Positions 3,137 to 39,092 of a DNA stretch of 54,625 bases are shown in pieces. The stretch spans positions 1 to 54,625 of the forward strand of contig JAYUSF010000108.1 of the NCBI GenBank assembly GCA_043755815.1, in the 5' to 3' direction. The first letter of the stretch is position 1; the number at the start of each line of letters is the position of its first letter. The translations under genes were made by a program, and so were the position numbers. The stretch comes from Verrucomicrobiota bacterium (GTDB taxonomy: Bacteria > Verrucomicrobiota > Verrucomicrobiia > Limisphaerales > UBA9464). The notes under the pieces are model-generated. The model saw only the letters and a program-made list of their open reading frames with translations. It did not search any database and was not told the origin of the DNA.

Positions 3137-6100
3137 TCAGTCCACATAGAGGAACTCGTTCGCGCTGAGCAACGCCTGGCAAAGGTCCGTAAGCACCTGC
3201 CGTTCGGGCGTGGGCTTCGGTTCGGCCTTGGCCTTGTCGTCTTTCTTGGCCTTGTCGTCGGCCGGAGGCGGGGGAAGCGACGCGAGGTGGGCGAGTTGGC
3301 GTTGCACGAAGGCCTGCGCCTCGGCCTGTTCGGCGGCGGTGGGCGGACGCTGGAAGGCGAGCTGCCAGGCGCGGCGGACTTGCGCGGCGCGGTCGGGGCC
3401 GGCGTCGGTTTCCAGGCGGGCGGCGAAGCGGGCGGCCTGGTCGAGCAGGAACTGGCTGTTCATCAGCATCAGCGACTGCGTGGCCACGGTGCTGTGCTGG
3501 CGGCGCTCGCAGTTCACCTCCATCACGGGCGCGTCGAACGCGTGCAGCAGCGCCAGCGGCCGGCTGCGGCGCACCTGCACGTAAACCGAGCGGCGGAACT
3601 CCTCGCCGTTCAGCGAACCTTCCACGGGCATCTTGTTGTCGCCGGTCGTCTTGTCCTCGCCCACGACGATCTGCCCGTGGACATCGGGTCGCACGGGCAC
3701 GGGCGGGCCGAACTGTTTCCGATTCAGCGAACCGCTGGTGGCGAGCACCCCGTCGCGGATGACCTCGGCGTCGAGCCGTTGGACCGGCTTGCGCCAGTAA
3801 AGGCGGTTCTCCGGATCGCGCCGTTCCTGCTTCGGGTCGCGGCGCGAGGCTTGCCGGTAAGCCGTCGAAGTGAGGATGAGCTTGTGCAGGCGCTTGAGCT
3901 TCCAGCCGTGCTGCGTGAAGTCGCTGGCCAGCCAGTCGAGCAGTTCAGGATGCGTTGGCTTCTCGCCCATCGCGCCGAAGTCCGCCGGCGTGTTCACGAG
4001 GCCGCGGCCGAAGTGGTGGAGCCAGATGCGGTTCACCAGCACGCGGGCGACGAGCGCATTCGTGCCGCTGGTGAGCCACTGCGCGAAGGCCAGCCGCCGG
4101 CCGCTGGTGGCGAAGTCGGCGCGATTCGTCGGAAACTCGATGGGTTGTCCCGTCGCGCTGAGCACGCTGAGGCCGCCGGGCAGCACCGCGGCCTTGGGTT
4201 GGTGATAATCGCCGCGGTGGAAGACGTGGGTGACGGGCTGGTGATGGGCCGGTTCGGTCAGCACGCTGAGAAAATCCTCGGCCGGCTTCTTCGCACGGAT
4301 TTCGCCGATCTTGGCGTCCATCGCCTTCAGGTCATCGGCGGCCTTCGGGTTGTATTGGTAGAGGACGCCCGGGTTGATGTTCACGCTGGGGTTGTCGGCG
4401 AGCAGCTTCTTCTGCTCGGGTGTGCGCTTGTCGGCGGGCGTGTCGTAGGCGGCCCGCAGCGGTGCGCGCAGGGCCTCGTCGAACTTCTCGAGGTGCTTCG
4501 TCAGCGCGTCGGCAAGGTAGTCCTTCTGCTTGGCTTCCTTTTCGGCCGCGAGCTTCTGCGCCTCGGCTTCAATCGCGGCGGACTGCTTCCGGTCGTCGTC
4601 GGTGTAGAGCGAGACGAGGCGTTCGCCGGGCGTGCGCCACTGCCTGTAGTCGTAGGCGGGCTCGAACACGGCGCGCAGCCGGTAGTAATCGGCGTGCGGG
4701 ATCGGGTCGTAGCGGTGGTCGTGGCATTGCGCGCAGCCGACGCTCAGGCCAAGCAGGGAGGTGGAGACGATCTTCAGCGTGTCGGCCATGACCTGATTGC
4801 GAACGGCGTCCCGGTCGGTCAAGGCGTCCGTGGCCGACCCGTCCACGCCCATGCGAAGGTAGCCCGTGGCCACGAGGAGATCGCGGGACTCGGCGCTGGC
4901 GAGCGCGACGGAAGAAGCAGAGGCCTGCGTCGCTTGGGCGAGTTCATCGCCGGCGAGCTGTTCGGTGACGAAACGGTCGAACGGCTTGTCGTCGTTGAAG
5001 GCGCGGATGACGTAGTCGCGATACTTGTAGGCGTAGGCGCGCGGCGGATCGGCGTCGCTGTAGCCGTCGGAGTCGGCGTAACCCGCGACATCGAGCCAGT
5101 GCCGGCCCCAGCGCTCGCCGTAATGCTTCGACTCGAGCAGGCGGTCGATGAGTCGCTCGTAGGCGGAGGCGGAAGATTGAATCTGGAAGGCAGGAAAGCC
5201 GGAAGGGGAAGAGCTGTTTGAACGGTTTTCTTTCGTTCCTGTTTTCCTGCCTTCCAGATTCCTCTCCGCTTCGCATTCGCGCACGAACGACTCCACTTCC
5301 TCCGGCGTGGGCGGCAGGCCGGTGAGGTCCAGCGTCACGCGTCGGATCAGGGTCACGGGATCCGCGTCGGGTGAGAACTTCACCCCCGCTGGCTTCATTT
5401 CGCTGACTAGGAATGCATCCAGCGGCGTGCGCGCCCGATCGCGGCTTTTCGTCTTCGGCACCGCCGGCTCGCGGATCGGCTGGAACGACCAGAAGGAACG
5501 TTCCTCCTCGGTGATGCCGCTGGTGCCCTTCGGCAATTCAGTGGGTTCGGGTCGCGCGGTTTTCGCGCCGGTCGCGATCCATTGGCGGAGCAGGGCGATC
5601 TCGGCCGGCGTGGGCTTCTTGTCGCGCTTTGGCATCTTGCCGCTTTCGACCAGCTTCAGCAGTTCGCTTTGGTCGGGCTTGCCGGGCACGATGGCCGGGC
5701 CGTCGTCGCCGCCCGCGAGGAGCAAGCGCCGCAAGCGCACGTCGAGGCCGCCCTTGAGCTGCTCGCCCTCGCCGTGACAGTCGAAACAATGCGCCTTGAG
5801 GATCGGCCGGATGTCCTTTTCGAAGGTGGGCGCCGGAGCGGCGAGGGCGGAAGGTCCAAGAAGGAGTCCGAACACAACCAGAGCGGCGGCTTCCAACTTC
5901 CGCAACCGCCGACGTGAAGAGGCTCCAACTGGAGACGCTGAACCGGCCAACGATGAACCAAGGGCTGCGGGGCGGTGTGGTGCAACGACCGCTTCCCCCT
6001 CACCCCAACCCTCTCCCTCGGGGAGAGGGAGTTGCTGGCCGACGCGGAAAGACTCCGCACGCGCTTTGGACAAGGGCCACCTTGTTTTCGCCGGTGTGAC

Positions 6101-7069
6101 CACTGACTGAATCGAAGCACAGCGCGTTTGACAATCCACCGGCACCGTGGCGTTCCCCCTCTCCCCGAGGGAGAGGGCCGGGGTGAGGGGGAACCGGGCG
6201 TGGTTGAAAACCGCCGTTTGACCTGCAAACCAGCTCCGCACCAACCTCTCTGCGTGCCCCCCAAGTGTCTGACCCGCGTCGCACGCGCTCTGCGAAAGAA
6301 TGACACGTGGTCTGAACAGCTCATATGGGGCTGGCTGCGAGGACGACGGTTCGCAAGCTACAAGTTCCGACGCCAGCACCCGTTCGGGGATCATGTCCTG
6401 GATTTCTTCTGTCTCGAAGCATGGCTGAACCTTGAACTGGACGGTTCGGGTCACGGCTTCCCCGACCAGCGCGCCAAGGACGCCCTCCGCGATGCCGAAC
6501 TGGAGCGGAAAGGAATCAAGGTGCTGCGCTTCTGGAATGGTGATCTGCGCCGCAACGCCCGCTTCATTCAGGACATGATCTGGCAGGCATTGCAGGAGCG
6601 GGCTCCGCACCGCGGAACGGCCGGTAAGTCCTAAGCCCATGAAACTGCGGGAGGTTTCTTTCCCCTCACCCCAACCCTCTCCCTCGGGGAGAGGGAGTCG
6701 CCCGCTCACGGCAGACAACTCCGAAAGTAATTCTGACGAAGACCGCCCTGTGTCGCCCCCTACGATCGCGGACTGAATCGCAGCACTACGCGTTGGCCGA
6801 TCCGCTGACGCAGTGACATTCTCCCTCTCCCCAAGGGAGAGGGTCGGGGTGAGGGGGAACCGCGCACCAATGCAAGCCGCCGCGTGGTTCGTCAACGGAG
6901 CGCGGACGATCACGTCCGCGAGAATTGTTGAACGCTTCCGCGCGGTTCCGGCGAACTCGAGCGGCGACTTTCCAGTCGCCGAACCGAGGCGGCTGGAATG
7001 CCGCCCCTCCATCACGGTGTCCCCGCGGACGAGGCCGTCCGCGCTCCGCAAATGTCTCTCCGCCTTCAT
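3137..7069 (-). CDS. DUF1549/DUF1553 (PSD1) protein with N-terminal planctomycete cytochrome c domain; start either ATG 7069 (coupled to upstream gene) or TTG 5905 (signal peptide)
   Basis: FEKDIRPILKAHCFDCHG (CxxCH), WSFQP, LIRRVTLDLTGLPPT, YGERWGRHWLDVAGYADS, CAQCHDH, ARVLVNRIWLHHFGRGLV, QSLMLMN, ANEFLYVD. ATG at 7069 overlaps the TGA of the DUF1501 gene (ATGA) and is in frame; MRKLEAAALVVFGLLLGPSALA from TTG 5905 resembles a signal peptide. Confidence 0.9.
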   Translation of the reverse strand: MKAERHLRSADGLVRGDTVMEGRHSSRLGSATGKSPLEFAGTARKRSTILADVIVRAPLTNHAAACIGARFPLTPTLSLGERENVTASADRPTRSAAIQSAIVGGDTGRSSSELLSELSAVSGRLPLPEGEGWGEGKETSRSFMGLGLTGRSAVRSPLLQCLPDHVLNEAGVAAQITIPEAQHLDSFPLQFGIAEGVLGALVGEAVTRTVQFKVQPCFETEEIQDMIPERVLASELVACEPSSSQPAPYELFRPRVILSQSACDAGQTLGGHAERLVRSWFAGQTAVFNHARFPLTPALSLGERGNATVPVDCQTRCASIQSVVTPAKTRWPLSKARAESFRVGQQLPLPEGEGWGEGEAVVAPHRPAALGSSLAGSASPVGASSRRRLRKLEAAALVVFGLLLGPSALAAPAPTFEKDIRPILKAHCFDCHGEGEQLKGGLDVRLRRLLLAGGDDGPAIVPGKPDQSELLKLVESGKMPKRDKKPTPAEIALLRQWIATGAKTARPEPTELPKGTSGITEEERSFWSFQPIREPAVPKTKSRDRARTPLDAFLVSEMKPAGVKFSPDADPVTLIRRVTLDLTGLPPTPEEVESFVRECEAERNLEGRKTGTKENRSNSSSPSGFPAFQIQSSASAYERLIDRLLESKHYGERWGRHWLDVAGYADSDGYSDADPPRAYAYKYRDYVIRAFNDDKPFDRFVTEQLAGDELAQATQASASSVALASAESRDLLVATGYLRMGVDGSATDALTDRDAVRNQVMADTLKIVSTSLLGLSVGCAQCHDHRYDPIPHADYYRLRAVFEPAYDYRQWRTPGERLVSLYTDDDRKQSAAIEAEAQKLAAEKEAKQKDYLADALTKHLEKFDEALRAPLRAAYDTPADKRTPEQKKLLADNPSVNINPGVLYQYNPKAADDLKAMDAKIGEIRAKKPAEDFLSVLTEPAHHQPVTHVFHRGDYHQPKAAVLPGGLSVLSATGQPIEFPTNRADFATSGRRLAFAQWLTSGTNALVARVLVNRIWLHHFGRGLVNTPADFGAMGEKPTHPELLDWLASDFTQHGWKLKRLHKLILTSTAYRQASRRDPKQERRDPENRLYWRKPVQRLDAEVIRDGVLATSGSLNRKQFGPPVPVRPDVHGQIVVGEDKTTGDNKMPVEGSLNGEEFRRSVYVQVRRSRPLALLHAFDAPVMEVNCERRQHSTVATQSLMLMNSQFLLDQAARFAARLETDAGPDRAAQVRRAWQLAFQRPPTAAEQAEAQAFVQRQLAHLASLPPPPADDKAKKDDKAKAEPKPTPERQVLTDLCQALLSANEFLYVD
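5179..5261. repeat. In-frame palindromic element (GAATCTGGAAGGCAGGAAA arms) inside PSCyt gene 1
   Basis: Perfect 19-bp inverted repeat 5179-5197 / 5243-5261; translated as NLEGRKTGT...SGFPAFQI; absent from the paralog at 14144. Confidence 0.9.
5996..6196. repeat. Composite palindromic unit A: two inverted BoxC-like CCCTCACCCC..CCCTCTCCC...GGGAGAGGG hairpins plus spacer
   Basis: cccctcaccccaaccctctccctcggggagaggga (5996-6030) and inverted copy cccctctccccgagggagagggccggggtgagggg (6156-6190). Confidence 0.9.
6254..6634 (+). CDS. DUF559 / Vsr-like PD-(D/E)XK endonuclease-domain protein
   Basis: ARALRKNDTWSEQLIWGWLR..RF..YKFRRQHP.G..VLDFFC....L.LELDGSGH....DALRDAELE..GIKVLRFWN; likely GTG start at 6254, in frame with ORF 6128-6634. 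Confidence 0.9.
   Translation: MPPKCLTRVARALRKNDTWSEQLIWGWLRGRRFASYKFRRQHPFGDHVLDFFCLEAWLNLELDGSGHGFPDQRAKDALRDAELERKGIKVLRFWNGDLRRNARFIQDMIWQALQERAPHRGTAGKS
6662..6862. repeat. Composite palindromic unit B: direct repeat of unit A, offset 666 bp
   Basis: cccctcaccccaaccctctccctcggggagaggga at 6662 is identical to 5996; the right arm ends gggggaaccg at the same offset; spacers are colinear (gactgaatcg.agcac..cgcgtt.g.c.atcc). Confidence 0.9.
6897..7047. repeat. Nested REP-like pairs
   Basis: Outer pair ggagcgcggacgatcacgtccgcg (~6898-6921) / cgcggacgaggccgtccgcgctcc (~7024-7047); inner pair gcggcgactttccagtcgcc (~6961-6980) / ggcggctggaatgccgcccctcc (~6988-7010). Confidence 0.75.
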
Positions 7070-8541
7070 GCGTCGCGCAGGATTTCCTTCACCACGCGGC
7101 AGGGTTTGCCGTCGGTGAGATGCTGGCTCTGGCCGTTCTGGAAGTAGGCCAGCTCCGCGTGATCCAGGCCGAACAGGTGCAGCAGCGTGGCGTGGTAGTC
7201 GTTCGGGCTGACGGGATTCACGACCGCCTTGTGGCCGAACTCGTCCGTCTCGCCGTAGGTCATGCCGCCCTTGAAGCCGCCGCCCGCCACCCAGCTCGTG
7301 AAGCCCTGGCCGTTGTGGTCGCGCCCCGCCTTCTCCGCGGCGCCGTGATTCTCCGTCACCGGCAGGCGGCCGATTTCGCCGCCCCAATGCACGATCGTCG
7401 AGTCGAGCAGCCCGCGCGCCTTGAGGTCCTTCACCAGCGCGGTGGACGGCTGATCGGTCTTCCGGCAGCACGTCGCGAGGTTGCTTTTGATGCCCTCATG
7501 ATTGTCCCAGATCTGGCCGTTCACGAAGAGCTGCACGAACCGCACGCCGCGTTCCACCAACCGGCGCGCGATCAGGCAGCGCGCGCCGTATTCGCGCGTC
7601 TCGTCGCGGTCGAGGCCGTAGAGCTTCTTCGTGGCCTCGCTTTCGCCGGAGATGTCCAGCGCCTCCTTGGCGGCGGTCTGCATGCGCGCGGCGAGTTCGT
7701 AGCTGGCAATGCGCGCTTCCAGATCCGCTTCGCCCGGGTGCCGCGCGAGGTGCTCCTGATTCAGGCGGGCAAGGAAGGCCAGGTTCTGTTCCTGCAACGT
7801 GCCTTTCAGGTGCGGCGGCGGATCAAGGTTCAGGATACGCGGCTCCGCCGAGCGGACGACCGTGCCCTGGAACAGCGGCGGCATGAAGCCGTTCGACCAA
7901 TTCCGCACGCCGTCCACCGGATGCCCGCCCGGATCGGTGAGCACCACGTAGGCGGGCAGGCTCTGGCTTTCGGAGCCGAGTCCGTAGGTCAGCCATGAGC
8001 CGAGTGCGGGGCGCCCCGGCTGCGCGCGGCCGGTGTTCATGAACCAGATGGACGGCTCGTGCCCGTTGATGTCCGTGTGCATCGAGCGGATCACCGTCAC
8101 GTCATCCACGATGCTGGCGAAGTGCGGCAGCAGCTCCGAAACGGGCGTGCCGCACTGGCCGTGCTGGCGGAATTCCCACGGGCTGCCGAACAGCTTCTTG
8201 CTCGCCCGATCCACGAAGCTGAACGTGATCTCGCCCGCGTAATCCTGCCCGCTGCGTTTGGTGAGCTCCGGCTTCGGGTCGAAGAGGTCGATGTGACTCG
8301 GCCCGCCGTGCATGAAGAGCGAGATCATCGCCCGCGCCCGTGGCGTCCGCGACGGCTGCTTCTGCTTCAGGTCAAAGGACTGCGGGTTGCGCGGCACGTT
8401 GGCCGGCGTGGCGAGCAGGCGTTCCTCCCGCAACATCCACGCGAGGGCCACGCTGCCGACGCCCATCGCATTGCGCGCAAGGAAGCGGCGGCGGGAGAGG
8501 ATTCCCGGCTCAGCGAACGGCAGCGGCGGAAACGGATTCAT
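7066..8541 (-). CDS. DUF1501 family protein (sulfatase-like fold, Tat-like signal)
   Basis: SRRRFL signal, RAMISLFMHGGPSHIDLFDPKP, GSWLTYGLGSESQSLPAYVVL, ARRLVERGVRFVQL, WGGEIGRLP, GRDHN, GETDEFG. Confidence 0.93.
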   Translation of the reverse strand: MNPFPPLPFAEPGILSRRRFLARNAMGVGSVALAWMLREERLLATPANVPRNPQSFDLKQKQPSRTPRARAMISLFMHGGPSHIDLFDPKPELTKRSGQDYAGEITFSFVDRASKKLFGSPWEFRQHGQCGTPVSELLPHFASIVDDVTVIRSMHTDINGHEPSIWFMNTGRAQPGRPALGSWLTYGLGSESQSLPAYVVLTDPGGHPVDGVRNWSNGFMPPLFQGTVVRSAEPRILNLDPPPHLKGTLQEQNLAFLARLNQEHLARHPGEADLEARIASYELAARMQTAAKEALDISGESEATKKLYGLDRDETREYGARCLIARRLVERGVRFVQLFVNGQIWDNHEGIKSNLATCCRKTDQPSTALVKDLKARGLLDSTIVHWGGEIGRLPVTENHGAAEKAGRDHNGQGFTSWVAGGGFKGGMTYGETDEFGHKAVVNPVSPNDYHATLLHLFGLDHAELAYFQNGQSQHLTDGKPCRVVKEILRDA

Positions 8542-8722
8542 GGGACGATACGGGTAGGATGGACGCGCCGGGGCGGAAGGGGAATTCAAGAATCGGCAGA
8601 CTCACTTTAGGGATCGACACCCCCCAGTCGCCAATCCAACAAACCCTACGGGGAGTTTTGTCTGGCCGTGCACAATACCTCAGCTTGCTCGGGACACTCA
8701 CGCCCCATAGCGTCCAACCGCA

Positions 8723-22874: not shown

Positions 22875-23255
22875 ATGGGCATGGAAGCGAAAACATCATC
22901 GGTCGGCGCTCGTCCAGACTGGAGCGGCGGTTGGTTGCGACGCCCGGTTCCCCCTCACCCTGTCCCTCTCCCTCGGGGAGAGGGGATCGACCGCGTGTGT
23001 GATGTGAGTCCACAGACGCCTCAGCCAGGGGCTGCCCATCGCCTCGCTGTATCGGAGTATCACGCGACTGGAGTAGCCTTGCTTCGTGACTTTCTCCCTC
23101 TCCCGCAGGGGGAGGGCCGGGGTGAGGGGGAAGCACGCTCAACGACTCATCGCCACTCAACCTCAATTCCTCCGCAAACGAACACCGACCTGGCATCCCG
23201 TCGGCTGAAAAGCCTCCGCTCCCGGCCGACGCGACCCACGACTGAAGACCCGTGA
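22875..23255 (+). other. REP-derived 126-aa bridge ORF between PSCyt and DUF1501 genes
   Basis: ATG 1 nt after the PSCyt TGA (22871-22873); its TGA (23253-23255) overlaps the DUF1501 GTG (GTGA); no recognisable domain. Confidence 0.45.
22951..23131. repeat. Composite palindromic unit C (same BoxC-like family as units A and B, no nuclease)
   Basis: cccctcaccctgtccctctccctcggggagagggg (22951-22985) and inverted ccctctcccgcagggggagggccggggtgaggggg (~23096-23131). Confidence 0.88.
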
Positions 23256-28532: not shown

Positions 28533-28780
28533 CTAAACCTCCACCGCCTCCACCGTCTCGTAGAGTGCGGCGATGCTCTTCGACGCAATGCGGAACTGGC
28601 TCCGTCGTTTGACTTTCGCCCGCTCCCCATCTCCGCCTCGATCGGGGAGAGGGCCGGGGTGAGGTGTCGAAGCATTTTTCAGCTTGATGCCGGGGTCGTA
28701 ATCCACCGCGCCGCCCGCCAGCGCCTTGAGCAGACGCAACCCATCCGTCCGCTGCGCCAGCCGGACGCGCGCGCCGTAGA
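28533..28780 (-). pseudogene. C-terminal remnant of an MvaI/BcnI-family restriction endonuclease, with in-frame REP insertion
   Basis: YGARVRLAQRTDGLRLLKALAGGAVDYDPGIKLKNAS...KVKRRSQFRI...LY resembles the YYDPGIK.EN...KRRSQFR C-terminus I recall for this family; in-frame stop just upstream (~28803). Confidence 0.6.
28624..28671 (-). repeat. 48-bp BoxC-like element, left copy
   Basis: Reverse complement matches 39013-39060 at 47 of 48 positions. Confidence 0.9.
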
Positions 28781-38287: not shown

Positions 38288-38560
38288 AAATGTTTCGGAC
38301 TGGAACACGCATTTCGCGCCTGCCTTCTCGAAGGCGATCCGGAATCCGCCGATGCCGCAGAAGAGGTCGATGAAGCGCAAGGCGGCCACCTCTCCCCGGC
38401 CCTCTCCCCGGAGCGGAGAGGGAGAAGAACCGGCGCGGTAGGGCGGGGCGGCTTCCTGGGCCGTAGGAGACGAGGTGACGAGTCTCTGACGTTTCGGCTG
38501 TCGGGGAGAGGTTTGAGCCTCCTCACGTCGGATCCTATCGGGCTTGGTTTTCCCGCTCAT
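38276..38560 (-). pseudogene. 5' remnant of a second Dcm-like C5 methyltransferase, with two in-frame REP insertions
   Basis: LRFIDLFCGIGGFRIAFEKAGAKCVFQSE (motif I) followed by abrupt loss of homology; ATG 38560 overlaps the TGA of the upstream HTH; REPs at 38389-38423 and 38463-38538. Confidence 0.8.
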
Positions 38561-38884
38561 GCGTCGACTCCCTCGCAGAGTTGGGCGGTGGTGAGGCGGA
38601 GGGCCTTGGCGAGCCGCGCGACGTTCAGGATGCCGGGGTTGCGCAGGCCGCGTTCGATGCCGCCAATACAACCCTCACCCGGCCTGACGGCCACCCTCTC
38701 CCATCCGCTGGGCGAGGGGCATGGGGTCCAGCCCCGCCTTTTCAGCCAACTTTTCCTGGGTTAGGGCGCGTTCCTCGCGCCGGCGGCGGACGTTTTGTCC
38801 GAGGGCGGCGAGGACCGGGCGGCGGCGTGGGCGGACAGGAATGTCCGCGGTCCCGGCGGGATTGGCGGCGGCGCGTTTCGGCAT
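38557..38884 (-). pseudogene. XRE/C-protein HTH gene disrupted by a REP insertion
   Basis: LGQNVRRRREERALTQEKLAEKAGLDP, then the REP at 38672-38719 (stop plus frameshift), then IGGIERGLRNPGILNVARLAKALRLTTAQLCEGVDA* in another frame. Confidence 0.85.
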
Positions 38885-38967
38885 GACGGATAGTCCATGC
38901 CGAAAGCGGGGGAAACTCTATGGACGATCAGCCAGGTTGGGAGGGGGGACGGCACCCCAGCTCCGAG

Positions 38968-39092
38968 GTGGGGCGGCGTTGGTCAGGGCTGCGGAGCACG
39001 CAGCCCCACCGGTTCGACACCTCACCCCGGCCCTCTCCCCGATCGAGGCGGAGAGGGGGAAAAGAATCTGCGTCCGTCTGCGTCATCTACGG
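38968..39092. repeat. Cluster of REP-like elements including the right copy of the 48-bp element (39013-39060)
   Basis: gggctgcggagcacgcagccccacc hairpin; ttcgacacctcaccccggccctctccccgatcgaggcggagaggggga; atctgcgtccgtctgcgtcatctacgg short repeat. Confidence 0.75.

What the first reader, a model, noticed from the sequence alone, without database searches (positions are those of the whole stretch)
5996..6862. DUF559 nuclease bracketed by two composite palindromic units: candidate REP-mobilising element without a RAYT transposase
Seen: unit A - DUF559 gene - unit B, with the units directly repeated exactly 666 bp apart. Nuclease-free members of the same repeat family occur at 22951-23131, 28624, 38389, 38672 and 39013. 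Known: RAYT (HUH) genes flanked by their REPs form REPtrons; DUF559 is a Vsr-like PD-(D/E)XK fold; the repeat resembles enterobacterial BoxC as I recall it. Inference: an analogous autonomous/non-autonomous system in which a Vsr-like nuclease cuts or spreads these hairpins. Recombination between A and B would excise a 666-bp, frame-neutral circle carrying the gene.
Basis: partly seen in the sequence, partly recalled or inferred. Interest (0 to 1): 0.82.

Follow-up and report, generated by a model that had tools for sequence, protein, structure and literature searches.

The report
DUF559 nuclease partnered with BoxC repeats
A small Vsr-like nuclease gene sits between two copies of a hairpin repeat long known in E. 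coli as BoxC, and the same pairing recurs in many bacterial phyla, which points to the so far unknown enzyme behind these widespread repeats.

Summary
Two ~225-nt palindromic units lie 666 bp apart as direct repeats and bracket an intact DUF559 gene. The repeat matches the published consensus of the E. coli BoxC / PIT / TM_ECO "intrastrand triplex" motif.

The pairing is general:
- All 3 DUF559 genes of this genome have the motif beside them.
- So do 19 of 21 short DUF559 genes in same-order genomes.
- So do 72 of 80 Verrucomicrobiota-type loci and 69 of 80 loci found with E. coli YcjD in other phyla.
- E. coli K-12 ycjD itself has the motif.
- Controls were 0 of 10 Y1-transposase loci and 0 of 10 long fused DUF559 loci.

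Repeat abundance tracks the gene: 12 of 13 genomes with the gene have at least 10 hairpins, against 1 of 28 without it. Same-genus genomes show empty, solo-unit and filled alleles of this site.

Best reading, at 0.6: a REPtron-like partnership in which a PD-(D/E)XK nuclease replaces the HUH transposase. No cleavage, circle or transposition was shown. I found no paper that links DUF559 or YcjD to these repeats.

The parts
5971..6215 (.). Unit A: a REPIN/MITE-like composite made of a left motif, ~125 nt of interior and an inverted right motif
   Evidence: Inverted arms 5971-6029 and 6157-6215, 59 nt, 83% complementary. As single-stranded DNA it folds into one long hairpin, -80 kcal/mol, z -7.5. 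An orthologous solo copy is present in G004 and absent in G002 and G003.
5997..6029 (-). Left BoxC/TM motif of unit A: box CCCTCACCCC, 2 nt, then a 9-bp hairpin. The purine (triplex-type) reading is on the minus strand.
   Evidence: Consensus from Holder et al. 2015.
6157..6190 (+). Right BoxC/TM motif of unit A, ~65 nt upstream of the DUF559 start. It is an exact fit to TM_ECO type B.
   Evidence: An alternative 16-bp hairpin with one T.T mismatch, -17.5 kcal/mol (I8, 70).
6254..6634 (+). DUF559 (YcjD-like, Vsr-fold PD-(D/E)XK) nuclease gene, 126 aa, start GTG inferred
   Evidence: PF04480 E 6.6e-28. 43% identical to E. coli YcjD. Columns invariant in all 34 aligned homologues, the window protein included: E21, F38, R40, D50, E61, D63, G64, H67, R92. 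AF2 model pLDDT 86.4. Foldseek: 3HRL, then homing endonuclease I-Bth0305I, with Vsr weaker.
6658..6882 (.). Unit B: second composite unit, a direct repeat of unit A
   Evidence: D1 copy, 74% identical, 666 bp from A. Arms 6659-6697 and 6821-6859, 92% complementary.
6663..6695 (-). Left BoxC/TM motif of unit B, 25-30 nt after the DUF559 stop. It is the inverted partner of 6157-6193.
   Evidence: I4: 6157-6193 and 6659-6695, 37 nt, 92% complementary.
6823..6856 (+). Right BoxC/TM motif of unit B
22927..23135 (.). Solo composite unit without a gene
   Evidence: Motifs at 22953 and 23108. Present in G003 and G004. G005 has a clean empty site, which sets the limits of the insertion.
28620..28666 (+). 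Single right-type motif with a degenerate stem
38389..38425 (+). Single left-type variant motif
39019..39060 (+). Single left-type motif with a longer loop

Best explanation
The locus is one member of a gene-repeat partnership that spans phyla. A short DUF559 nuclease (YcjD-like, Vsr / I-Bth0305I-type PD-(D/E)XK fold) is always encoded between a right-hand and a left-hand copy of the BoxC / PIT / TM 'intrastrand triplex' hairpin motif. The same motif, mostly as inverted doublets of ~200 nt (L-interior-R units), is scattered through the genome.

Shown here:
- The physical linkage and its constant geometry (R motif, gene, L motif).
- The tracking of repeat number with gene presence.
- Insertion/deletion polymorphism of both the unit and the gene cassette.
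- Cassette-limited sequence identity between unrelated genomic contexts.
- Some co-variation of the hairpin variant with the gene copy.

Inferred:
- The protein recognises the motif, probably when it is extruded as a hairpin or triplex on single-stranded DNA.
- It nicks at or beside the motif.
- Repair or recombination primed at such nicks copies whatever lies between two motifs, either the gene or the 125-nt interior, into other motif-bearing or new sites.

Functionally this would be a REPtron/REPIN-like or homing-like system in which a PD-(D/E)XK nuclease takes the place of the HUH (RAYT) transposase.
For: (1) Own genome. All 3 DUF559 genes lie between an R-type motif upstream and an L-type motif downstream. 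The genome has ~95 oriented motifs in 5.74 Mb. In an unbiased clustering of ORFs next to hairpins, DUF559 was the only cluster I found with all its members (3 of 3) adjacent.

(2) Same order. 19 of 21 short DUF559 loci have a hairpin within 200 bp, against 0 of 10 Y1_Tnp loci and 0 of 10 long fused DUF559 loci.

(3) 80 best Verrucomicrobiota-type loci. 72 of 80 have a hairpin within 200 bp. Density is 2.42 per kb at 0-199 bp and 0.00-0.15 per kb in bins beyond 600 bp. The order is always [L] R - gene - L [R].

(4) 80 best loci found with E. coli YcjD, from Entero-, Xantho-, Alpha- and Betaproteobacteria, Melainabacteria, Elusimicrobiota, Marinimicrobia and Methylomirabilota. 69 of 80 have such a hairpin within 300 bp, at 2.04 per kb against 0-0.23 per kb further out. 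In Enterobacteriaceae the stop codon lies in the hairpin loop.

(5) E. coli K-12. ycjD runs into a degenerate hairpin, and published TM_ECO no. 9 lies ~170 bp downstream.

(6) Co-occurrence. At least 10 hairpins in 12 of 13 genomes with a short DUF559, against 1 of 28 without. In the phylum of a Melainabacteria MAG, at least 1 hairpin in 53 of 79 against 16 of 72 genomes, odds ratio 7.1. Related genomes are not independent, so the p-values overstate.

(7) Y1_Tnp is a poor predictor: 12 of 13 against 17 of 28.

(8) Polymorphism. The site is empty in G002 and G003, holds a solo unit in G004, and holds unit-gene-unit here. The solo unit at 22927-23135 is absent in G005.

(9) In the six locus pairs examined (four within one genome, two between genomes), 80-95% DNA identity is confined to 430-760 bp covering R, gene and L. 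Flanks are unrelated even by tblastx.

(10) The two hairpins flanking a gene are exact reverse complements, loop included, in 16 of 57 and 7 of 27 loci. With shuffled partners the means were 3.3 and 0.4 and the maxima 8 and 3.

(11) Paralogues in one genome carry different hairpin variants. One variant class forms a single clade on the protein tree across three genomes (support 94/89; 1 of 500 shuffles as low). In Luteimonas all 8 CCCTCCCC hairpins have the loop of the gene's own flanks.

(12) The fold is nearest to a DUF559 crystal structure and to a homing endonuclease.
Against: - No binding, cleavage, excision product or new insertion was observed. Metagenome contigs gave no usable joint.
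- The gene lies outside the abundant L-interior-R units, and the two arrangements are inside-out relative to each other (box innermost beside the gene, box outermost in the units). The gene cassette is therefore not the classical autonomous parent of those units.
- The only near-identical duplicate pair found (L101/L102, 517 bp with one mismatch) carries the same premature in-frame TAG in both copies. That copying event did not need its own product.
- Co-occurrence is imperfect. 26 of 79 DUF559-positive genomes in the second phylum have no canonical hairpin, and 7 of 72 negative ones have 5 or more. G017 has 12 hairpins and no short DUF559.
- The PF04480 genome search did not ring in the control E. 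coli although K-12 ycjD is annotated DUF559, so 'gene absent' calls are soft.
- In E. coli most TM_ECO copies sit at the same loci in 56 strains (Holder et al., Discussion), so there is little recent movement there.
- A DUF559-domain protein in Caulobacter (VsrA) is tied to cytosine methylation and an SOS response, not to repeats.
Confidence: 0.6

Rival explanations
1. Hitch-hiker or cargo. The repeat units are moved by some other enzyme or by host recombination. The DUF559 gene is a small selfish or neutral passenger that became trapped between two units and travels with them like the cargo of a composite element. Its nuclease activity is unrelated to the hairpins.
For: The gene lies between units, not inside one. 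A copy with a premature stop was duplicated. Gene-less R-(~60 nt)-L 'mini-cassettes' alternate with unit interiors in arrays. There is a 79-bp duplication of flanking host DNA at C175.
Against: In G000, DUF559 was the only ORF cluster found with all its members adjacent to hairpins. The same family occupies the slot from E. coli to Verrucomicrobiota and Melainabacteria. ORF ends overlap the motif at fixed distances. Hairpin variants differ between paralogues in one genome. No other candidate enzyme tracks the repeats, and Y1_Tnp does not.
Confidence: 0.15
2. Guardian or repair nuclease. BoxC/TM motifs stall replication and destabilise DNA. A Vsr-like nicking enzyme that processes such structures is selected wherever the repeats are abundant. 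Linkage arises because repeats pile up next to existing repeats.
For: TM_ECO loci are more variable than control intergenic regions, and the motif blocks polymerases in vitro (Holder et al., abstract and passages). The Vsr family is a repair family. Caulobacter VsrA, which has a DUF559 domain, triggers SOS. Gene and repeats co-occur.
Against: It does not explain why the gene is flanked on both sides, in a fixed inverted geometry, with matching loops. It does not explain why the cassette with its hairpins is found at 80-100% identity in unrelated contexts.
Confidence: 0.15
3. Cis-regulatory hairpins. The motifs are 5' and 3' structural elements of the DUF559 transcript (stability, termination, autoregulation). 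The dispersed copies are unrelated by-products.
For: The upstream motif lies 25-110 nt before the start, and the downstream motif overlaps or follows the stop.
Against: Earlier work cited by Holder et al. found no promoter or terminator activity for PIT elements. No T-run terminator and no sigma-70-like promoter was found here. It does not explain tens to >100 gene-less copies per genome that appear only where the gene is present.
Confidence: 0.05
4. Chance juxtaposition of an abundant intergenic repeat with a small orphan gene.
For: None beyond the fact that both are intergenic-type features.
Against: The motif is 6 to 10 times in the window against 0.12 expected. Linkage holds in 19 of 21, 72 of 80 and 69 of 80 independent loci, with 0 of 20 in controls.
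Confidence: 0.01

Closest known systems
BoxC / PIT element / TM_ECO intrastrand triplex motif (Bachellier et al. 1999 and Hoyne et al. 2000, as cited in Holder et al. 2015, NAR, PMC4666352; I read the abstract, sections 15, 18 and 20, Table 1 and passages)
   Same: The sequence fits the published consensus position for position. It is intergenic, occurs singly or as inverted pairs, is found in many phyla, and its loci are variable.
   Different: That paper reports no associated mobility function ('never found ... transposases or integrases') and no common flanking gene. The words ycjD, endonuclease and Vsr have 0 occurrences in its main text. Here a specific gene family is linked to the motif, including next to the paper's own TM_ECO no. 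9. Its Supplementary Table S2 (flanking genes) could not be seen.
REPtron: RAYT (HUH Y1 transposase) gene flanked by its REP/REPIN sequences (recalled: Nunvar 2010, Bertels & Rainey 2011, Ton-Hoang 2012; not read here)
   Same: One or a few gene copies are flanked by inverted copies of a short palindromic repeat. The repeat is far more abundant elsewhere, mostly as inverted doublets that fold into long hairpins. Repeat abundance tracks gene presence, and different gene copies carry different repeat variants.
   Different: The enzyme fold is PD-(D/E)XK (Vsr-like), not HUH. The Y1_Tnp genes of this genome are not next to the motif. The gene cassette itself appears to move. The motif carries a third 'box' that allows a triplex.
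Free-standing or intron-borne homing endonucleases of the Vsr-like class, I-Bth0305I (PDB 3R3P)
   Same: It is the second-best structural match after the DUF559 crystal structure (Foldseek probability 1.0, TM 0.60-0.63 by query and 0.76-0.80 by target). It is a small nuclease gene that spreads as a selfish cassette.
   Different: There is no intron or intein context. The putative target is a dispersed repeat rather than a unique conserved gene site. No cleavage data exist.
Vsr very-short-patch repair endonuclease (PDB 1VSR, 1CW0)
   Same: Same superfamily. A YcjD profile detects Vsr (Feder & Bujnicki 2005, passage). The structural match is weak but present (TM 0.47-0.53).
   Different: No partner cytosine methyltransferase was seen next to the gene. 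The gene is embedded in repeats, and a mismatch-repair role was not tested.
MITEs and their autonomous IS parents
   Same: The ~200-245-nt units have terminal inverted repeats and presence/absence polymorphism. Gene-less R-(~60 nt)-L derivatives of the gene cassette exist.
   Different: No known IS family uses a lone PD-(D/E)XK nuclease (recalled, not checked against ISfinder). No clear target-site duplication was seen. The gene is not inside the abundant unit.

Membership tests
Pfam DUF559 (PF04480), YcjD-like | HMM score above the gathering cut-off over the whole domain | tested here: met
   97.2 bits against 20.6, profile positions 3-108 of 109. NCBIfam PRK09767 gave 87.6 bits, below its equivalog cut-off of 218, so the protein is a family member but not an equivalog of E. 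coli YcjD.
Pfam DUF559 (PF04480), YcjD-like | Conserved acidic/histidine motif (D ... E-x-D-G ... H) and a Vsr-like alpha/beta fold | tested here: met
   D50, E61, D63, G64 and H67 are invariant in 34 sequences. The model has pLDDT 86.4. Best structural hit is 3HRL, E 2e-5.
BoxC / PIT / TM_ECO motif | Consensus CCCTCNCCC-N3-6-GGGNGAGGG-N3-GGGNGAGGG | tested here: met
   6157-6190 and 6823-6856 fit on the plus strand. 5997-6029 and 6663-6695 fit on the minus strand.
BoxC / PIT / TM_ECO motif | Intergenic, many copies, often as inverted pairs | tested here: met
   ~95 oriented motifs, about 25 of them as L-R pairs by my reading of the list. The site lies between a PSD1-type gene and a DUF1501 gene.
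BoxC / PIT / TM_ECO motif | Forms an intrastrand triplex | not testable with these tools
   Only hairpin folding could be computed. Triplex formation was shown in vitro for E. coli oligonucleotides by Holder et al..
REPtron (RAYT + REP) | The flanked gene encodes an HUH Y1 transposase | tested here: not met
   The gene is DUF559, and no PF01797 hit was listed for its ORF at E <= 0.01. 0 of 10 Y1_Tnp loci of this genome carry the hairpin.
REPtron (RAYT + REP) | The gene is flanked by inverted copies of the repeat that is dispersed in the genome, and repeat number tracks the gene | tested here: met
REPIN | Two inverted repeats that fold into one long hairpin as a single strand | tested here: met
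   Unit A folds at -80 kcal/mol, z -7.5, with the arms paired.
MITE | Terminal inverted repeats, small size, no ORF, insertion polymorphism | tested here: met
MITE | Target-site duplication of fixed length | tested here: inconclusive
   One filled/empty comparison at 83% identity allows at most a 2-3-nt ambiguity. A 79-bp flanking duplication at C175 is of another kind.
Homing endonuclease gene | The nuclease cuts the empty allele and is copied in by repair | not testable with these tools
   Only fold likeness to I-Bth0305I and empty, solo and filled alleles are available.
Known anti-phage defence systems (PADLOC) | Match to a defence-system protein model | tested here: not met
   Only a partial 28-bit match to the nuclease part of DpdF.

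The most novel reading that the evidence does not exclude
Short DUF559/YcjD proteins are the long-missing partner enzyme of the BoxC / PIT / TM 'intrastrand triplex' repeats, which are found in hundreds of bacterial genomes including E. coli K-12. Together they form a new class of mobile or semi-domesticated element. It would be driven by a lone Vsr-like PD-(D/E)XK nuclease that recognises a hairpin/triplex structure, with each nuclease lineage co-evolving with its own hairpin variant.
Probability: 0.5. Interest if true: 0.9.

Novelty: new variant of a known kind. Interest (0 to 1): 0.82.

Why it matters
BoxC/PIT/TM repeats have been catalogued since the 1990s. They have been shown to form triplexes in vitro and to mark unstable loci, but no enzyme or origin has been assigned to them. 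The 2015 survey states that no mobility function was found near them. DUF559 is a very widespread orphan family, and the function of its E. coli member YcjD is unknown.

A specific, cross-phylum physical and phyletic link between the two gives each a testable function in a model organism. It would add a PD-(D/E)XK nuclease to the HUH enzymes as a driver of REP-like repeats. It would also explain a source of intergenic instability and of assembly breaks in many genomes.

Tried and rejected
- Sequencing runs: no RNA holder was listed. Laying four metagenome runs, held as contigs only, gave joints with short sides that come from other repeat copies. There was no 666-bp deletion or circle junction that could be trusted.
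- The Rfam scan of 5800-7000 gave only two chance-level hits, E 0.79 and 0.95.
- The promoter/terminator scan found no sigma-70-like site and one terminator-like site inside the gene, no more than shuffles give.
- My first pattern, with a 4-nt loop, found nothing because the loop is 3 nt.
- My first test of reverse-complement flanks failed because of a trimming error in my script and was redone.
- The co-phylogeny tree used only 15 of 24 loci, because my ORF extraction failed for 9. It is weak support only.
- An integron-like reading (units as attC-like sites, gene as cassette) was considered and set aside. In G000 no other recurrent gene family was seen between an R and an L motif, and solo units are dispersed. 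No integrase search was made.
- Supplementary tables of Holder et al., which list the genes flanking each TM_ECO, could not be opened. They may list ycjD without comment.
- Literature searches that returned nothing relevant by title or listing: 'DUF559' + 'repetitive extragenic palindromic' (0 papers); 'DUF559' (25 papers); 'ycjD' (21); 'intrastrand triplex' + bacteria + repeat (20); BoxC + triplex + endonuclease (1).
Full report
WHAT IS THERE. The window is contig C108 of a 5.74-Mb, 65% GC assembly of 388 contigs. Record titles of the nearest DUF559 loci, and the PSCyt/PSD1 and DUF1501 genes, place it in Verrucomicrobiota, close to Limisphaerales or 'subdivision 3' MAGs.

Between the start of a PSCyt1/PSCyt2/PSD1 gene (3140-5917, minus) and the stop of a DUF1501 gene (7066-8589, minus) lie two ~225-nt units. 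They are direct repeats, 5992-6216 and 6658-6882, 74% identical and exactly 666 bp apart.

Each unit has three parts:
- a left motif: box CCCTCACCCC, 2 nt, then a 9-bp hairpin with a 3-nt loop;
- ~125 nt of interior that is also conserved between units;
- the inverted right motif.

Unit A's inverted arms extend to 59 nt (5971-6029 and 6157-6215). As a single strand the unit folds into one long hairpin (-80 kcal/mol, z -7.5).

Between the units lies an intact 126-codon DUF559 gene (6254-6634, GTG start inferred; PF04480 E 6.6e-28).

THE REPEAT HAS A NAME. The right motifs fit the consensus CCCTCNCCC-N3-6-GGGNGAGGG-N3-GGGNGAGGG position for position. This is the consensus of the E. coli BoxC / PIT / 'TM_ECO' intrastrand triplex motif of Holder et al. 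2015 (PMC4666352; Table 1 and methods passage).

That paper reports the following (abstract, sections 15, 18 and 20 and passages):
- the G/C-rich motif occurs in more than 260 genomes;
- MG1655 has 23 copies, five of the loci as inverted pairs;
- triplex formation in vitro;
- higher variability at these loci;
- explicitly, no transposase, integrase or common flanking gene.

The words ycjD, endonuclease and Vsr do not occur in its main text.

THE LINKAGE IS GENERAL. The genome has three DUF559 genes. Each has an R-type motif upstream and an L-type motif downstream. At C86 the upstream copy is degenerate and the contig ends 190 bp upstream of the gene.

| Set of loci | Hairpin beside the gene | Density near / far |
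|---|---|---|
| Short DUF559 loci, 41 same-order genomes | 19 of 21 within 200 bp (misses: L018, L020) | - |
| Control: Y1-transposase loci | 0 of 10 | - |
| Control: ~1000-aa proteins with a C-terminal DUF559 domain | 0 of 10 | - |
| 80 best of 583 relatives in the species-genome collection | 72 of 80 within 200 bp | 2.42 per kb at 0-199 bp; 0.00-0.15 per kb beyond 600 bp |
| 80 best of 461 relatives found with E. coli YcjD | 69 of 80 within 300 bp (perfect polypyrimidine/polypurine hairpin) | 2.04 per kb next to the gene; 0-0.23 per kb further out |

In the third set the order is always [L] R - gene - L [R]. The YcjD set comes from Enterobacteriaceae, Xanthomonadales, Alpha- and Betaproteobacteria, Melainabacteria of 36-42% GC, Elusimicrobiota, Marinimicrobia and Methylomirabilota. 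Its 11 misses include six Escherichia/Shigella loci whose hairpin is degenerate.

In Enterobacteriaceae the TGA stop lies in the hairpin loop. In Stenotrophomonas the whole unit-gene-unit architecture of the window recurs, with the start ~25 nt after R and the stop inside the L box.

In E. coli K-12, ycjD ends in a degenerate hairpin. It is followed by a duplicated fragment of its own 3' end, and then by a BoxC copy that is TM_ECO no. 9 of the published table.

ABUNDANCE TRACKS THE GENE. Among the 41 same-order genomes, 13 have a full-length short DUF559.
- All 13 have at least 3 core hairpins, and 12 have at least 10 (range 3-145).
- Of the 28 others, 21 have none and only G017 has at least 10.
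- The pattern is patchy over 17 families.

In 151 genomes sampled from the phylum of a Melainabacteria MAG, at least one canonical hairpin occurs in 53 of 79 DUF559-positive and 16 of 72 negative genomes, an odds ratio of 7.1.

Three cautions apply. Related genomes are not independent. One fixed pattern misses variant hairpins. The family search failed to ring in the control E. coli, so absences are soft.

They occur in 12 of 13 hairpin-rich and 17 of 28 other genomes, which makes them a poor predictor.

BOTH PARTS COME AND GO. At this very site, sister genomes differ:
- G002 and G003 have ~165 bp of unrelated spacer, with no unit and no gene.
- G004 has one solo unit with the same left flank.
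- G005 has another, unrelated spacer.

G004's right flank follows unit A's flank to about 6235 and then joins the DUF1501 stop region, so it is not the simple A x B recombinant.

The solo unit at 22927-23135 is present in G003 and G004 and cleanly absent in G005.

The gene cassette also moves. In the six locus pairs examined (four within one genome, two between genomes), 80-95% DNA identity is limited to 430-760 bp covering R, gene and L. The flanks are unrelated even at protein level.

In one MAG two contigs share 517 bp with one mismatch. The shared stretch starts exactly between the R hairpin and its box, and runs through the gene and the L motif. Both copies carry the same premature TAG.

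Gene-less R-(~60 nt)-L remnants exist. By eye they keep the ends of the C175 cassette's untranslated regions, and they alternate with unit interiors in short arrays.

SPECIFICITY.
- The two hairpins flanking a gene are exact reverse complements, loop included, in 16 of 57 and 7 of 27 loci. With shuffled partners the means were 3.3 and 0.4.
- In four small low-GC genomes with 4 to 6 fetched DUF559 paralogues each, 13 of 20 genes have flanking hairpins. Paralogues in one genome carry different stem/loop variants.
- On a protein tree of the 15 loci I could extract, one variant class is a single clade spanning three genomes (support 94/89; 1 of 500 shuffles as low). All classes together need 6 changes, against a shuffled mean of 8.4.
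- Genome-wide variants match the gene's flanks in Luteimonas and in two Melainabacteria.

THE PROTEIN. It is 43% identical to E. coli YcjD. E21, F38, R40, D50, E61, D63, G64, H67 and R92 are invariant in 34 homologues. The AlphaFold model (pLDDT 86.4) is closest to the DUF559 crystal structure 3HRL, then to the catalytic domain of homing endonuclease I-Bth0305I. Vsr matches more weakly. It belongs to no known defence system model.

HOW IT MOST LIKELY WORKS. The linkage, geometry, co-occurrence, polymorphism and cassette-limited identity are shown. The mechanism is inferred: the nuclease recognises its cognate motif, probably extruded on single-stranded DNA, and nicks next to it. Repair or recombination primed there copies what lies between two motifs.

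This resembles the RAYT/REPIN partnership in logic and homing endonucleases in enzymology, but it is a member of neither. I put 0.6 on a functional nuclease-repeat partnership, and about half of that on the homing-like route.

The main counter-evidence is:
- the lack of any biochemical or read-level event;
- the inside-out topology of the gene cassette against the abundant unit;
- the duplicated dead copy;
- imperfect co-occurrence in the second phylum;
- positional stability of the E. coli copies.

NOVELTY. Searches of the paper library for DUF559, ycjD, BoxC and intrastrand triplex, alone or combined with repeat terms, returned nothing that links the gene family to the repeats by title or listing. 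The key repeat paper denies any associated mobility gene. The library lacks most subscription journals, and supplementary tables were closed, so prior notice elsewhere cannot be excluded.

Noticed in passing
G000 contig C175:12813-13790 (locus L001): A 79-bp stretch that holds the start codon and first ~26 codons of the neighbouring minus-strand gene is duplicated at 95% identity. The two copies lie on either side of [unit - DUF559 - half unit], with a period of ~899 bp. The arrangement is conserved in G004 and G005.
   Followed up: partly
L042 (E. coli K-12 NC_000913 1351040-1351406, between fabI and ycjD): Downstream of ycjD there is a second, truncated copy of the ycjD 3' end with a degenerate hairpin. 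It looks like the remnant of a tandem second cassette. Then comes published TM_ECO no. 9.
   Followed up: partly
window 5955-6209 and 6618-6872: In sediment and freshwater metagenome contigs the summed word depth over the hairpin bins reaches 9608, against ~6-17 over the unique flanks. The motif is therefore extremely abundant across those communities.
   Followed up: no
window 38540-38900 (minus strand) with motifs at 38389, 38683 and 39020: Three single or degenerate motifs surround a small minus-strand ORF, and one overlaps its 3' end. By eye the ORF looks like an XRE-type helix-turn-helix regulator. No family search was run on it.
   Followed up: no
window 5842-7053: The insertion splits a DUF1501 / PSCyt-PSD1 gene pair that is only ~165 bp apart in G002 and G003. 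It lies on the opposite strand to that pair. About 195 bp (6863-7057) of extra sequence after unit B has no counterpart in G004.
   Followed up: partly
L183:3411-3510 (Stenotrophomonas MAG): Downstream of the DUF559 gene the left motif plus interior is amplified in tandem, at least three times, next to an N-masked stretch. The sister records L179 and L194 have a single copy.
   Followed up: no
The genome search control panel: The PF04480 whole-genome search never rang in the control E. coli although K-12 ycjD is annotated as DUF559. The tool's first look can miss short DUF559 genes, so the 'absent' cells in my co-occurrence tables may include false negatives.
   Followed up: no
G000 contigs C86, C5, C19, C244, C277: A sub-family of the motif has a longer, self-paired loop of 12-14 nt and ~7 copies. 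One of them is the motif directly downstream of the C86 DUF559 gene, whereas the other two DUF559 genes carry the short-loop form.
   Followed up: partly
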